Below, one piece after another: positions 19,749 through 61,028 of a stretch of 64,000 nucleotides of DNA. Position 1 is the first letter of the stretch; each line of letters begins with the position of its first letter. Both the position numbers and the translations under genes were made by a program. The notes under the pieces are model-generated. The model was not told the DNA's origin and ran no database searches. It worked only from the letters and a program-made list of their open reading frames with translations. Source of the stretch: Erysipelotrichales bacterium (GTDB lineage: Bacteria; Bacillota_I; Bacilli_A; RFN20; CAG-826); NCBI GenBank assembly GCA_022508535.1, contig JAFLUZ010000008.1, positions 10,467 through 74,466 of the forward strand, in the 5' to 3' direction.

Positions 19749-19946
19749 AAATCCACCTCCAACTCGTTAAATTATAACAAATTTATTTAATATATTAAAT
19801 ATATAAATTTATACTTTATAATTTCAAATTTGTCTCAATTTAATAATTTTTATACGATTTATAAGTTTGTCTCACCTATAAGTAATAATGAAGGAACTAG
19901 AACGGTCTAGGCGTGCAAAACTCCTGCACGAACGGAGATGATGTCT

Positions 19947-19985
19947 ATGAGAACTAAAAAGCTCACTGATAGAATCTCTAAGTAA
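19947..19985 (+). CDS. Putative 12-aa leader peptide MRTKKLTDRISK
   Basis: GGAG 9 nt upstream; TAA overlaps the next RBS (TAAGGAAGGAG); frame and length kept in copy 2. Confidence 0.5.
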   Translation: MRTKKLTDRISK

Positions 19986-19999
19986 GGAAGGAGATCCCA

Positions 20000-20098
20000 T
20001 TGGTGAGCAGTATTATCAATATTGCAAGTGTAATAATTACTTTAGTAACCATTATAACTACAGTTATCGAAATTATTAGAAATAATAAAAATAGATAG
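20000..20098 (+). CDS. Putative type I toxin, 32-aa hydrophobic peptide MVSSIINIASVIITLVTIITTVIEIIRNNKNR
   Basis: Strong AAGGAAGGAG RBS, TTG/GTG start, single TM-length helix plus basic tail; conserved in copy 2. Confidence 0.75.
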   Translation: MVSSIINIASVIITLVTIITTVIEIIRNNKNR

Positions 20099-20102
20099 GA
20101 AA

Positions 20103-20188
20103 TAAAAAAAAAGCCGCTAACAACTTTCAATCAACGCGGCTAACTATCTGCAGGAGTTAGTCACTAGATTGAACTAGGACCTTCCTTA
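20103..20188 (-). ncRNA. Putative antisense antitoxin RNA (copy 1)
   Basis: Minus-strand -10 TATACT at 20194-20199; terminator AGCCGC...GCGGCT followed by a long T-run. Confidence 0.55.
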
Positions 20189-20225
20189 TTAATAGTATAC
20201 AACAATTCAAATAAATTTGCTATTT

Positions 20226-20245
20226 TATATATATATATATATATA
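20226..20245. repeat. (TA)10 microsatellite
   Basis: Direct reading. Confidence 0.9.
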
Positions 20246-20409
20246 AAATTCCACATTTATAAATCTCTTTTTCAAAATGTCAAATAGAATGTAATATACA
20301 CTTTTTTATAAATCGTATAATTAATTTTGTTTCTAAGTTATATCCATTGCAAAATGCATTTTCATATATTATATTTCAATTAATAAAATATCTTTCGAGG
20401 TGAAAATAT

Positions 20410-59744: not shown

Positions 59745-59989
59745 AATTTCCTCCTGCTACGATCAATAAATGTATCGTGCATTGTTATTATATAACAATT
59801 ATTTGTTAATACCAAAAGTAAAATGCTTACAATAGTTAAAAAACAACTCATTAAAAGTAGTTTATCTCAAATTTGTCTCAATTTAATAAATTAATCCGAT
59901 TTTTAAGTTTGTCTCACCTATAAGTAATAATGAAGGGACTAGAAAAGTCTAGGCGCGCAAAACTCCTGCTCAGAACGGAGATGATGTCT

Positions 59990-60028
59990 ATGAGAAATAA
60001 AAAACTCACTGATGGAATCTCTAATTAA
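59990..60028 (+). CDS. Putative 12-aa leader peptide MRNKKLTDGISN
   Basis: Same position, length and stop/RBS overlap as copy 1. Confidence 0.5.
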   Translation: MRNKKLTDGISN

Positions 60029-60042
60029 GGAAGGAGATTTCG

Positions 60043-60141
60043 TTGGTGAGTTTACTTATCAATATTGCAAGTATAATTGTGAATTTAATAAGCATTATAA
60101 CTACAGTTATCGAAATTATTAGAAATAATAAGAGTAAATAG
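60043..60141 (+). CDS. Putative type I toxin, 32-aa peptide MVSLLINIASIIVNLISIITTVIEIIRNNKSK
   Basis: AAGGAAGGAG RBS; 23/32 identical to copy 1, mostly conservative changes. Confidence 0.75.
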   Translation: MVSLLINIASIIVNLISIITTVIEIIRNNKSK

Positions 60142-60144
60142 AAA

Positions 60145-60227
60145 CAAAAAAGCCGCTCTGAACATTCAATCTTAGGCGGCTGATTAGCAGTTGAGTTAGT
60201 CACTAGGTTGATCTAGGACCTTCCTCA
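60145..60227 (-). ncRNA. Putative antisense antitoxin RNA (copy 2)
   Basis: Minus-strand TTGCAA(60257-62)-18bp-TATAAT(60233-38); AGCCGC...GCGGCT plus T-run terminator. Confidence 0.58.
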
Positions 60228-60290
60228 TTTATATTATATAGCAAGTATTAAATATTTTGCAAAATATTTTTAGAAAACCAATACTAAAAT

Positions 60291-61028
60291 CTAAGATAGC
60301 CAATAACTTTTCTTAAGAGGCAGTTCACCATCTTTTCTTTGCTTAATGGCCTTTTTAATTAATTTTCTTTTTCCATCAACAAAATCGTATACATCAATAT
60401 AATCTTCATCAATATTTTTAGGAAAAATTACTTTGCCATTTGGTTTATATTTTTTTTCTACATTTTTGCTAATATTATGAGCAAAATCAAGATCTTGTTC
60501 AAAAAGATAGTAAATCGAAAATGATGCTATAGGATCATTATGATCAAAAAATATACATTTATATCTTACCTTTTTTACATCATATTCCATGACTTGTAGA
60601 TAATTAATATTGTCAGTGTTTTCATTAAACAAAGGAACGTAATATACGATATCACCAAAATTAAATTTTGTTTTTCGAGGTAGATATTCTCCACCCCAAT
60701 GTCTAAAAGCTTTTCTAATTAATTTTTGTTTTTTACCATCAAATTCATAAATATCGTAATAATTATCATCAAGATTTTTTGGAAATATTGGTCCACCTTC
60801 TAAATACCATCTCGCACGTATAGGATCAACTTTATCAATAAAATCAATGTCTTCTTCTTTAAAATAAATGATAGTAAAAAAAGATTGTGGAGCTAATGCA
60901 TCAAATGATATGCATTTATATTTTTGCATATTTTCGTCATATTCCATTACTTGCATATAATCTATACCAGTAGAATTGTCTTCTAAAAATGAAACATTAT
61001 ATACAATATCGCCAAAATGAAATTTCAT
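60291..61028 (-). CDS. Hypothetical protein made of two tandem ~120-aa repeats
   Basis: KF.FGDIVY.V...I.Y.QVMEYD....YKCI.FD...FPKN.D..Y.D.Y.F.....KLI.KA occurs twice. Confidence 0.8.
   Translation of the reverse strand: MKFHFGDIVYNVSFLEDNSTGIDYMQVMEYDENMQKYKCISFDALAPQSFFTIIYFKEEDIDFIDKVDPIRARWYLEGGPIFPKNLDDNYYDIYEFDGKKQKLIRKAFRHWGGEYLPRKTKFNFGDIVYYVPLFNENTDNINYLQVMEYDVKKVRYKCIFFDHNDPIASFSIYYLFEQDLDFAHNISKNVEKKYKPNGKVIFPKNIDEDYIDVYDFVDGKRKLIKKAIKQRKDGELPLKKSYWLS

What the first reader, a model, noticed from the sequence alone, without database searches (positions are those of the whole stretch)
19824..20199. Unannotated two-copy type I toxin-antitoxin-like module (second copy 59867-60238)
Seen: two ~365-bp copies 40 kb apart, each in an intergenic gap divergent from a housekeeping gene (lepA, coaX). 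Each encodes a 32-aa hydrophobic peptide with a basic tail (23/32 identical), a strong RBS held in an ATCTC/GAGAT hairpin, and a convergent minus-strand promoter and terminator defining an ~85-nt antisense RNA over the 3' UTR. The terminator loop differs between copies, as expected for copy-specific antitoxins. Established: this layout matches Gram-positive type I TA systems (TxpA/RatA, Fst, BsrG/SR4). I cannot assign the peptide to a known family. No transposase or target duplication is visible.
Basis: partly seen in the sequence, partly recalled or inferred. Interest (0 to 1): 0.75.

Follow-up and report, generated by a model that had tools for sequence, protein, structure and literature searches.

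The report
Multi-copy type I toxin-antitoxin-like family
An uncultured gut bacterium carries about seven unannotated copies of a small module that looks like an RNA-controlled membrane-toxin gene of a known general kind, but belongs to no described family.

Summary
The module is not two-copy. The 1.5-Mb genome holds 5 contiguous full copies, 4 half copies at contig ends (probably 2 more modules) and 1 remnant that keeps only the antisense half. One sister species has about 9-10 antisense genes, mostly at the same loci.

It is predicted to be a single helix with a basic tail. The ~300-nt mRNA fold is supported by compensatory changes. It has a 5'-3' closing helix and an 18-21-bp hairpin that buries the ribosome-binding site and start codon. 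A convergent ~83-nt antisense RNA gene has a conserved promoter and a terminator that works only on the minus strand.

The layout closely parallels Bacillus subtilis bsrG/SR4. No Pfam, NCBIfam or Rfam model reaches threshold; Hol_Tox scores only 15-18 bits. Searches of about 900 related genomes, plasmids, phages and metagenomes found nothing more.

Verdict: probably a new, lineage-restricted type I toxin-antitoxin family. I found no transcript or toxicity data.

The parts
19826..19874 (+). Copy 1 promoter region. It holds two direct repeats AA(A/G)TTTGTCTCA (19826-19837 and 19863-19874), 37 nt apart. They may be an operator or an unusual promoter element.
   Evidence: the repeat finder D3 finds them in both copies. 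They are conserved in the 5' flanks of most copies.
19877..19889 (+). Copy 1 tandem -10-like block TATAAGTAATAAT. There is no canonical -35 at 17 nt. The TSS is inferred near 19890-19896.
   Evidence: The block CTATAAGTA(A)TAAT is present in 7 of 7 G000 5' ends; its only other genome matches are at two unrelated sites (C12:86739, C23:46557). The TSS is not measured.
19890..20190 (+). Copy 1 predicted toxin mRNA, about 300 nt. The 3' end is inferred after the CUAG hairpin.
   Evidence: MFE is -81.1 kcal/mol with z = -6.05. The consensus fold of 6 full copies has 86 pairs, 93.9% of cells paired and 10 pairs with compensatory change.
19890..19927 (+). 5' arm of the long 5'-3' closing helix, the counterpart of helix P1 in bsrG mRNA.
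   Evidence: Alignment columns 1-38 pair with columns 272-306. Inverted repeat I2. All 6 full copies close this way in the MFE fold.
20150..20184 (+). 3' arm of the closing helix. It lies wholly inside the stretch covered by the antisense RNA.
   Evidence: The variable part co-varies with the 5' arm (UGCA/UGCA in copy 1; AUGCU/AGCAU in the C1b copy).
19934..19985 (+). Pseudo-SD (GGAG, 19934-19937) followed 9 nt later by an AUG (19947) that opens a 12-codon upstream ORF. Its stop (19983-19985) abuts the true SD. The pseudo-SD strand can pair with the anti-SD strand as an alternative hairpin.
   Evidence: The block GGAGATGAT(G/A)T(C/T)TATG is invariant in 9 of 9 5' ends. The alternative hairpin has 14 pairs, 98.8% of cells paired against 30-49% when slid, and 2 compensatory pairs. 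Translation of the uORF is speculation.
19962..20007 (+). Hairpin that buries the Shine-Dalgarno sequence (GGAG, 19990-19993) and the GTG start (20003-20005). The anti-SD strand is 19962-19979.
   Evidence: I10. Helices 4 and 5, where the GUG-to-AUG change is compensated by CAC-to-CAU. P(unpaired) of SD-start is 0.00-0.19 in 5 of 6 copies and 0.51 in copy 1.
20003..20098 (+). Copy 1 toxin-like ORF: 31 aa, MSSIINIASVIITLVTIITTVIEIIRNNKNR, stop at 20096-20098.
   Evidence: AlphaFold2 gives one helix over residues 2-30, pLDDT 93. GRAVY is 0.95 and the tail charge is +3.
20105..20187 (-). Copy 1 predicted antisense (antitoxin) RNA, about 83 nt. It has a 5' hairpin, a variable spacer, and a terminator hairpin (20113-20140) with a U-run (20112-20104). 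It ends about 5 nt short of the ORF.
   Evidence: The CM built on 14 copies gives 97.7 bits here.
20194..20222 (-). Copy 1 antisense promoter: -35 TAGCAA (20222-20217), 17-nt spacer, -10 TATACT (20199-20194).
   Evidence: The same layout is seen by eye in 15 of 15 3' ends from G000 and G002.
59932..60229 (+). Copy 2 predicted toxin mRNA. The SD/start hairpin lies at 60002-60053.
60046..60141 (+). Copy 2 ORF: 31 aa, MSLLINIASIIVNLISIITTVIEIIRNNKSK.
60146..60262 (-). Copy 2 antisense RNA gene (RNA about 60227 to 60147) with its promoter: -35 TTGCAA at 60262-60257, 18-nt spacer, -10 TATAAT at 60238-60233.
   Evidence: 99 bits.

Best explanation
This is a lineage-restricted, multi-copy family of type I toxin-antitoxin modules. 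Its architecture is that of Bacillus subtilis bsrG/SR4 or bsrE/SR5.

The plus strand gives an mRNA of about 300 nt for a 31-residue single-helix membrane peptide with a basic C-terminal tail, the presumed toxin. The mRNA is held translationally silent by an 18-21-bp hairpin that buries the ribosome-binding site and the start codon. A long helix between its first ~38 nt and its 3' UTR closes the whole molecule.

A convergent gene gives an antisense RNA of about 83 nt, the presumed antitoxin. It is fully complementary to the 3' UTR, including the 3' arm of the closing helix.

Inferred steps, by analogy with SR4:
1. The antisense terminator loop first kisses the complementary mRNA loop.
2. Pairing spreads into the 3' arm and displaces the mRNA's own 5' arm.
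3. RNase III cuts the long duplex and the toxin mRNA decays.
4. In some copies the freed 5' arm (CUCCU) may also capture an upstream pseudo-SD and so reinforce the closed ribosome-binding-site hairpin.

Shown here: the sequences, their conservation, the ORF and the RNA pairings. Inferred: transcription of both strands, toxicity, and the order of events.
For: Copies:
- 12 matching pieces in the own genome: 5 full copies, 2+2 halves at contig ends, 1 remnant of the 3' half, and 2 short promoter-like pieces.
- 8 antisense genes by covariance model.
- One pair of halves (C9 end plus C7 end) is joined by synteny with a full copy in the sister species.

Coding:
- The ORF is open with exactly 31 codons in 5 of 5 full copies, the C7 piece and G002 L013.
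- There are no indels in the CDS, while the UTRs have several.
- pN/pS is 0.36-0.85 in 15 of 15 pairs.
- The simulated chance that all 5 diverged copies stay open is 0.017.
- The peptide is predicted as one helix, pLDDT 93.

mRNA fold:
- z = -6.05, and the closing helix appears in the MFE fold of 6 of 6 copies.
- 86 consensus pairs, 93.9% of cells paired against 33-50% in slid controls.
- 10 pairs with compensatory change against 1-3 in slid controls; 0 of 500 shuffles reach the observed values.

Antisense gene:
- The promoter is seen in 15 of 15 3' ends.
- Two invariant hairpins flank a hypervariable spacer and loop.
- The terminator's U-run is on the minus strand only.
- Predicted cognate binding gain is about -100 kcal/mol over the free RNAs.
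- An RNase III gene is present at 215.6 bits, cut-off 166.

Parallel in print:
- In bsrG mRNA (296 nt), nt 1-35 pair with nt 232-262 in helix P1 and the SD lies in a stem. The SR4 terminator loop makes first contact and frees nt 1-33 (PMC3834814: abstract and sections 13-14 read).
- Gram-positive families place the antisense RNA on the 3' side (PMC8594479, passages).
- B. subtilis toxins are 29-59 aa (PMC6562991, passages).
Against: - I have no transcript evidence for either strand; no RNA run was listed.
- I have no toxicity data.
- The purifying-selection signal on the ORF is modest. RNA-structure constraints overlap the CDS (helix 3 pairs the 5' UTR with codons), so part of the conservation could be at RNA level.
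- The toxin promoter has no canonical -35, and the generic promoter scan shows no excess over shuffles.
- No clear intrinsic terminator is found for the plus-strand mRNA.
- If the TSS lies 7 nt after TATAAT, the outermost 5 bp of the closing helix are not in the RNA.
- Thermodynamic modelling shows almost no change in SD accessibility when the 3' arm is blocked. It stays at 0.00-0.05 in 4 copies, goes from 0.51 to 0.41 in copy 1, and from 0.19 to 0.11 in the C53 copy. A translation-level effect of the antisense RNA is therefore weakly supported.
- The peptide reaches no family threshold.
Confidence: 0.7

Rival explanations
1. The module encodes a harmless small membrane protein, for example a regulator or subunit of a membrane complex. 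Its expression is tuned by a cis-antisense RNA, and there is no toxin-antitoxin behaviour.
For: Everything shown here (ORF, helix, antisense gene) is equally compatible with a non-toxic micro-protein. No known toxin family is matched.
Against: A micro-protein partner of one complex would not be expected in 7-8 diverged paralogous copies in a 1.5-Mb genome, each with its own antisense gene. One locus keeps only the antisense half (C53:50266-50419), which is what loss of a toxin looks like. Triple sequestration of the translation start is typical of genes whose product must not be made.
Confidence: 0.13
2. It is a non-autonomous mobile or repetitive element (MITE- or REP-like). Its long inverted repeat is a transposition or recombination feature, and the ORF and promoters are incidental.
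For: It is dispersed in intergenic gaps next to housekeeping genes. It has a long internal inverted repeat (I2). The lepA site is empty in two sister species. Spacer and loop modules appear shuffled between loci.
Against: Most loci are shared with the sister species, so recent movement is rare. The inverted repeat is internal (transcript ends), not terminal. The possible end repeat I5 is seen only in copy 1, and I saw no target duplication. The ORF frame, length and hydrophobic character are kept. Pairings show compensatory change, which indicates RNA-level rather than DNA-level function. No match in plasmids or phages.
Confidence: 0.07
3. The functional product is the minus-strand small RNA family, acting in trans on other targets. 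The plus-strand transcript is only a sponge or a by-product.
For: The most invariant stretch of the whole element lies in the antisense RNA (GTCC...CTAGTGACTAACTC, invariant or nearly so in 14 of 14 copies). An antisense gene survives alone at one locus.
Against: The invariant stretch is also the 3' arm that must pair with the conserved mRNA 5' arm. The ORF and its SD hairpin are conserved too. I did not search for other complementary targets, so there is no positive support.
Confidence: 0.05

Closest known systems
bsrG/SR4 and bsrE/SR5 type I toxin-antitoxin systems of Bacillus subtilis
   Same: - The toxin mRNA is about 300 nt (bsrG is 296 nt).
- Its first ~35 nt pair with a 3' segment in a long closing helix (P1), and the SD is buried in a stem inside it.
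- The toxin is small and hydrophobic (BsrE 30 aa, BsrG 38 aa, against 31 aa here).
- A convergent antisense RNA pairs with the 3' part, including the 3' strand of the closing helix.
- Its terminator loop faces a complementary mRNA loop.
- RNase III is available.
Sources: PMC3834814 sections 13-14 and PMC6562991 passages. This work.
   Different: - No detectable peptide similarity.
- The antisense RNA is about 83 nt, against 163-183 nt, and stops about 5 nt short of the ORF instead of overlapping it.
- The antisense terminator sits between the stop codon and the 3' arm.
- The SD hairpin is 18-21 bp and includes the start codon, against 4-5 GC pairs.
- Copies lie between housekeeping genes, not in prophages.
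- There are 7-8 copies per genome.
hok/Sok (plasmid R1) and aapA1/IsoA1 (Helicobacter pylori)
   Same: The full-length toxin mRNA is closed by a 5'-3' long-distance pairing. There are alternative or metastable anti-SD hairpins. A short upstream reading frame ends at the toxin's ribosome-binding site, which recalls mok. My knowledge of hok and mok is recalled. The title of Franch 1997 was seen in a reference list. For PMC6733600 only the search listing and the start of the abstract were seen.
   Different: In those systems the antitoxin pairs with the 5' leader or translation-initiation region and acts on a 3'-processed mRNA. Here the antisense RNA covers the 3' UTR. They are Gram-negative families with unrelated peptides.
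Pfam PF16935 Hol_Tox (putative holin-like toxin)
   Same: The length class is similar (model of 34 positions): a single hydrophobic helix with a basic C-terminus. It is the only model that scores at all.
   Different: Scores are 15.3-17.6 bits against a gathering cut-off of 23.3. Only 4 of 7 members match at E up to 10 (best 0.0025). In the whole-genome scan a transmembrane segment of an unrelated 252-aa ORF scores about the same, 14.1 bits.
Fst/RNAII (par of pAD1) and SprA1/SprA1as
   Same: Convergent transcripts, with an antisense RNA that does not overlap the ORF (PMC8594479 passage).
   Different: In those families the interaction occurs outside the overlap. Here the extensive complementarity is the overlap itself. 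No Fst-family hit in Pfam or NCBIfam.

Membership tests
Type I toxin-antitoxin system (general kind) | Small (<60 aa) hydrophobic, membrane-helix peptide ORF, conserved | tested here: met
   31 aa. Open in all full copies of two species. One helix, pLDDT 93. Core hydropathy 2.2-2.7. Basic tail.
Type I toxin-antitoxin system (general kind) | Antisense RNA gene with its own promoter and terminator, complementary to the toxin mRNA | tested here: inconclusive
   The promoter is seen in 15 of 15 ends and the terminator is oriented for the minus strand. The CM finds 8 copies in G000 and 10 in G002. No transcript data were available.
Type I toxin-antitoxin system (general kind) | Toxin mRNA folded so that translation is intrinsically repressed | tested here: met
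   The SD-plus-start hairpin has compensatory changes. P(unpaired) is at most 0.19 in 5 of 6 copies.
Type I toxin-antitoxin system (general kind) | The peptide is toxic and the RNA neutralises it | not testable with these tools
   Needs expression experiments.
BsrG/SR4 - BsrE/SR5 group | Peptide homologous to BsrG, BsrE or BsrH | tested here: not met
   No such hit in Pfam or NCBIfam at E up to 10. The only type I toxin model listed is YonT at E 0.51. I did not check whether the libraries hold models for BsrG, BsrE or BsrH.
BsrG/SR4 - BsrE/SR5 group | A long 5'-3' helix (P1) enclosing the SD stem, with its 3' strand inside the antisense target | tested here: met
   compared with PMC3834814 section 13.
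BsrG/SR4 - BsrE/SR5 group | The antisense RNA overlaps the 3' part of the ORF | tested here: not met
   The terminator U-run ends at 20104 and the stop codon is at 20096-20098. The rule is from PMC8594479.
Pfam Hol_Tox PF16935 | Score at or above the gathering cut-off of 23.3 bits | tested here: not met
   Best score 17.6 bits. 4 of 7 members match at E up to 10.
Rfam antitoxin or other RNA families | Covariance-model match at the gathering score | tested here: not met
   0 matches in the 64-kb window. At E up to 10 there is only noise, and nothing recurs across 6 copies.
MITE / REP-like repeat | Conserved terminal inverted repeats and target-site duplication | tested here: not met
   An end repeat is seen only in copy 1 (I5). 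I saw no duplication. The long inverted repeat is internal.

The most novel reading that the evidence does not exclude
The module may be a three-state RNA switch rather than a simple antisense pair.
- One anti-SD strand can pair either with the true SD and start (closed) or with an upstream pseudo-SD (open). Both hairpins are conserved with compensatory changes.
- A 9-12-codon upstream ORF that ends in or just before the anti-SD/SD region would open the lock by translational coupling, as mok does for hok.
- The antisense RNA, whose 5' half is a near copy of the mRNA's own 5' arm, would work by evicting that arm from the 3' UTR so that it captures the pseudo-SD.

With 7-8 partly cross-reactive copies and an orphan antitoxin beside ribosomal and tRNA-synthetase genes, the family would form a genome-wide network, for example for phage defence or to protect core regions against deletion.
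Probability: 0.15. Interest if true: 0.65.

Novelty: new member of a known kind. Interest (0 to 1): 0.45.

Why it matters
Type I toxin-antitoxin systems are short and fast-evolving, and annotation pipelines usually miss them. The T1TAdb paper lists 24 families from 218 species (PMC8594479). My search for the term 'type I toxin-antitoxin' together with Erysipelotrich* found 2 papers, neither about such a system by title.

If the reading holds, this family would add:
- A family from an uncultured gut Erysipelotrichales genus. That taxon label comes from earlier scan notes and I did not check it.
- A natural set of 15 or more diverged sense/antisense pairs for studying antitoxin specificity.
- An independent second example of the bsrG-type architecture, in which the closing helix is the antisense target.

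It is also a practical annotation point. None of the 6 peptide sequences looked up (4 own copies, 2 from the sister species) is in a 15-billion-protein collection. The repeats also break the assemblies of both species at several loci.

Tried and rejected
- RNA evidence: the look-up of sequencing runs (kind rna) listed no RNA holder.
- Protein searches:
  - The profile of 7 peptides against 1.84 billion representatives gave only 2 hits. P0001 and P0002 are 30 aa, E about 2e-4, and are unnamed singletons. Their DNA context could not be fetched.
  - The search for related loci on genome contigs and metagenome contigs matched patterns, but nothing passed tblastn.
  - The ESM Atlas gave only unnamed hits at 0.80-0.81.
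- DNA searches:
  - A 26-nt motif of the antisense core found 0 matches in genome contigs and 0 in metagenome contigs. The tool notes that the own or very near genomes may be left out.
  - blastn and tblastn against plasmids and phages gave no match.
- Genome panels:
  - DNA search of 60 relatives: only G002 has real copies. The short hits in 8 other genomes had no peptide ORF and look like AT-rich chance matches.
  - Peptide HMM over 401 order-level genomes: G000, G002 and one 18-residue contig-end fragment, which I rejected on inspection.
  - Peptide HMM over 401 class-level genomes: 11 weak hits of 17-22 bits. The 2 best that I inspected lack a start codon or lie inside longer ORFs.
  - Antisense CM over 150 relatives: 2 of 150 genomes match.
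- Minus-strand ORF of 44-65 aa opposite the toxin ORF: open in all copies, but its start is not conserved and it lies beyond the antisense terminator. I rejected it as a mirror image of a hydrophobic AT-rich ORF.
- rli28 (Rfam) at E 7.9 in copy 1 did not recur in 5 other copies.
- Earlier scan notes searched by sequence and by words held nothing on this element.
Full report
**What is there**

Pfam confirms the divergent upstream neighbours as LepA and type III pantothenate kinase.

Each copy has the following parts:
- an upstream block with two direct repeats AA(A/G)TTTGTCTCA and a tandem -10-like TATAAGTA(A)TAAT;
- a leader of about 110 nt;
- a strong SD (AAGGAAGGAG);
- a small ORF;
- a GC-rich hairpin preceded by an A-run, which is a terminator for the minus strand only;
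- a second small hairpin;
- a minus-strand sigma-70-type promoter.

**Copy number**

The module is not two-copy. blastn of the own 1.5-Mb assembly (55 contigs) finds the following:
- 5 contiguous full copies: C54 twice (the window), C1 twice, and C53;
- two 5' halves at contig ends (C9, C23);
- two 3' halves at contig ends (C7, C34);
- one internal remnant that keeps only the last third of the ORF and the antisense half (C53:50266-50419);
- two short promoter-like pieces.

A covariance model of the antisense RNA finds 8 genes in this genome. Synteny with a full copy in the sister species G002 shows that the C9 and C7 ends are one module. That the C23 and C34 ends form the other module is inferred by elimination only.

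My estimate is therefore 7 complete modules plus one orphan antisense gene. All lie in intergenic gaps beside ordinary genes. By my reading of their N-termini these include lepA, coaX, trpS, thrS, infC-rplT, rplU-rpmA and hpf. Only lepA and coaX were checked with Pfam.

**The ORF**

The next codon is GTG in most copies and ATG in the C53 copy. In G002 it is ATG preceded by TTA. The product is therefore 31 aa.

Evidence that it is coding:
- It is open in 5 of 5 full copies, the C7 piece and G002 L013. The four other partial pieces are in frame as far as they go.
- The CDS has no indel, while both UTRs have several.
- pN/pS is 0.36-0.85 in all 15 pairs of 6 sequences.
- Replacements are conservative (I/V/L, S/T, K/R).
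- A simulation with the observed numbers of substitutions keeps all five diverged copies open in 1.7% of trials.

AlphaFold2 on the 9-sequence alignment gives one helix over residues 2-30, pLDDT 93. The hydrophobic core scores 2.2-2.7 on the Kyte-Doolittle scale and the last seven residues carry +2 to +4. This evidence for coding is good but not overwhelming, because part of the CDS is also constrained by RNA pairing.

**The mRNA fold**

Copy 1 from 19890 to 20190 folds at -81.1 kcal/mol with z = -6.05. All six full-length copies close their first ~38 nt onto the 3' UTR in the MFE fold.

On the six-sequence alignment, the RNAalifold consensus has 86 pairs. 93.9% of cells are paired, against 33-50% when partners are slid by 1-3 columns. 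10 pairs show changes on both sides, against 1-3 in the slid controls. 0 of 500 shuffles reach the observed values.

The informative helices are:
- **The 5'-3' closing helix** (columns 1-38 with 272-306). Its variable inner part co-varies between copies.
- **The SD/start hairpin** (18-21 bp). It pairs an anti-SD strand with the SD and the start codon. The GUG-to-AUG change is matched by CAC-to-CAU, and AAUCUC/GAGAUU changes to AGUCUC/GAGACU.
- **A leader-to-CDS helix** between the leader block GGAGAUGAUGUCUAUGAG and codons in the middle of the ORF.

The SD-start segment is predicted to be almost fully paired in 5 of 6 copies (P unpaired 0.00-0.19) and half open in copy 1 (0.51).

**An alternative hairpin and an upstream ORF**

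The leader block is a near copy of the true SD strand. It can pair with the same anti-SD strand. That alternative hairpin has 14 pairs, is 98.8% paired across the six copies (30-49% when slid) and has 2 compensatory pairs. It is the MFE form in copy 1.

The block also reads as GGAG, then 9 nt, then AUG. This opens a 9-12-codon upstream ORF in every complete leader. The stop lies within 10 nt of the toxin SD in most copies, but the peptide sequence is not conserved.

I regard a toggle as plausible. I regard translational coupling as speculation, because short open frames are common in AT-rich DNA.

**The antisense gene**

In 15 of 15 3' ends from the two species, I see by eye a -35 close to TTGCAA, a 17-18-nt spacer and a TATAAT or TATACT -10. 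These lie about 7 nt upstream of (A/G)AGGAAGG. For copy 1 the hexamers are at 20222-20217 and 20199-20194. The generic scan reports the copy 2 promoter with 10 of 12 matches.

The RNA would run from about 20187 to about 20105, roughly 83 nt. It has an invariant 5' hairpin, a hypervariable spacer, and an invariant GCCGC/GCGGC terminator stem with a large variable loop and a U-run. It ends about 5 nt short of the stop codon.

It is complementary to the 3' arm of the closing helix, so its 5' half is necessarily a near copy of the mRNA's 5' arm. The two must compete for the same site. Predicted cognate binding gains about 100 kcal/mol over the separate folds.

Non-cognate pairs are still predicted to form long duplexes (-94 to -141 kcal/mol, against -159 to -179 for cognate pairs). 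[quoted passage not shown]

**Mechanism**

The closest described system is bsrG/SR4:
- bsrG mRNA is 296 nt.
- Its nt 1-35 pair with nt 232-262 in helix P1.
- The SD sits in a stem inside P1.
- SR4's terminator loop makes the first contact.
- SR4 binding frees nt 1-33 and lengthens the SD stem.
- RNase III cuts the duplex.

These points come from PMC3834814 (abstract and sections 13-14) and PMC6562991 (passages).

I propose the same sequence of events here. An RNase III gene is present. When the 3' arm is blocked in silico, the freed CUCCU of the 5' arm pairs with the pseudo-SD AGGAG in the C1a and C1b copies. SD accessibility falls slightly in the two copies where it was not already near zero. 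This fits a bsrG-like translational effect but is weak evidence. RNA decay is the safer inference.

**Distribution and evolution**

- Among 60 relatives searched by DNA, only the congener G002 has copies (11 pieces).
- The antisense model finds 10 hits in G002 and none in 148 other relatives, including 5 other species of the genus.
- The peptide profile finds nothing convincing in 401 order-level or 401 class-level genomes.
- Whole-collection scans, plasmids and phages are blank.
- Two unnamed 30-aa metagenomic peptides share the I-N-I-V...T...N-N-K/R pattern.

Four loci are occupied in both species. One locus is full in G002 but reduced to a 70-nt promoter remnant in G000. The lepA locus is empty in G002 and G003.

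At the shared infC-thrS locus the flanks are 89-93% identical, but the element is only about 75% identical to its positional counterpart and 80% to a paralogue elsewhere. Spacer and loop variants recur at different loci in the two species. This points to exchange between copies rather than transposition.

**Family assignment**

No family threshold is met:
- Pfam Hol_Tox scores 15.3-17.6 bits (cut-off 23.3), in 4 of 7 members. An unrelated membrane segment scores about the same in the genome scan.
- In NCBIfam, the only type I toxin model that appears is YonT, at E 0.51.
- Rfam has nothing.

The module therefore works like a bsrG/bsrE-type type I system but is not a demonstrable member of any described family.

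**Verdict**

This is a real, conserved, unannotated module family. It is most likely a new lineage-restricted type I toxin-antitoxin family of known architecture. Transcription, toxicity and neutralisation are all still inferred.

The organism label (uncultured gut Erysipelotrichales) comes from earlier notes of this scan and I did not check it.

Noticed in passing
L049:2487-3126 (G002, lepA-hydrolase spacer): Where G000 has copy 1, the sister species has two paralogous minus-strand genes for small membrane proteins of 77 and 80 aa (MDERPVNVQDEGSLGLGIVLGIF... and MYEEKPQDEGSVGLGIVLGIF...). Neither has a Pfam match. The same spacer seems to be a landing site for different small membrane-protein genes.
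   Followed up: partly
window 19826-19874 and 59869-59916; C1 copies (L003, L004): The direct repeat AA(A/G)TTTGTCTCA occurs twice, 36-37 nt apart, upstream of the toxin -10. In the two C1 copies the distal repeat sits in the loop of a perfect 11-12-bp palindrome (AATCTCAAATT / AATTTGAGATT). It could be an operator for an unknown regulator or an insulating hairpin. There is no canonical -35.
   Followed up: partly
G000 C53:50266-50419: This remnant keeps the antisense RNA gene (92 bits with the model) and the last ~20 codons of the ORF, but has lost the leader, SD and start. It looks like an orphan antitoxin, next to rplU-rpmA-obg-like genes.
   Followed up: partly
window 20224-20246: A (TA)n microsatellite lies immediately after copy 1. 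It also forms the strongest local inverted repeat, I1.
   Followed up: no
window 60291-61028 (minus): A 245-aa ORF downstream of copy 2 has no Pfam match. It has an obvious internal duplication (FHFGDIVYNVSFLEDNSTGIDYMQVMEYD... and FNFGDIVYYVPLFNENTDNINYLQVMEYD...).
   Followed up: no
L013:1260-1372 (G002) and L004:99-206 (G000 C1): Two near-threshold Rfam matches lie beside copies. One is the L20 leader at 57.0 bits (cut-off 58.7), next to the infC-rplT-side copy. The other is a SAM riboswitch at 36.1 bits (cut-off 44.4), upstream of the C1b copy.
   Followed up: no
alignment A7 (antisense RNAs of G000 and G002): The spacer and terminator-loop variants are mosaic. For example, the spacer CCAAATGCTCGAATT is shared by the G000 C7 and C34 copies and by the G002 copy at the coaX locus. 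The loop CTAAGTATGGAATG(A/G)ACTAAG is shared by G000 C1a and the G002 copy at the C1b locus. This suggests recombination between paralogues.
   Followed up: partly
G000 C2:11857-11879: Three TTTGTCTCA motifs lie in tandem at 11-nt spacing on the minus strand, unrelated to any copy of the module.
   Followed up: no
whole window: The Rfam gathering-score scan of all 64 kb returned no family at all, so no tRNA, riboswitch or leader reached threshold.
   Followed up: no
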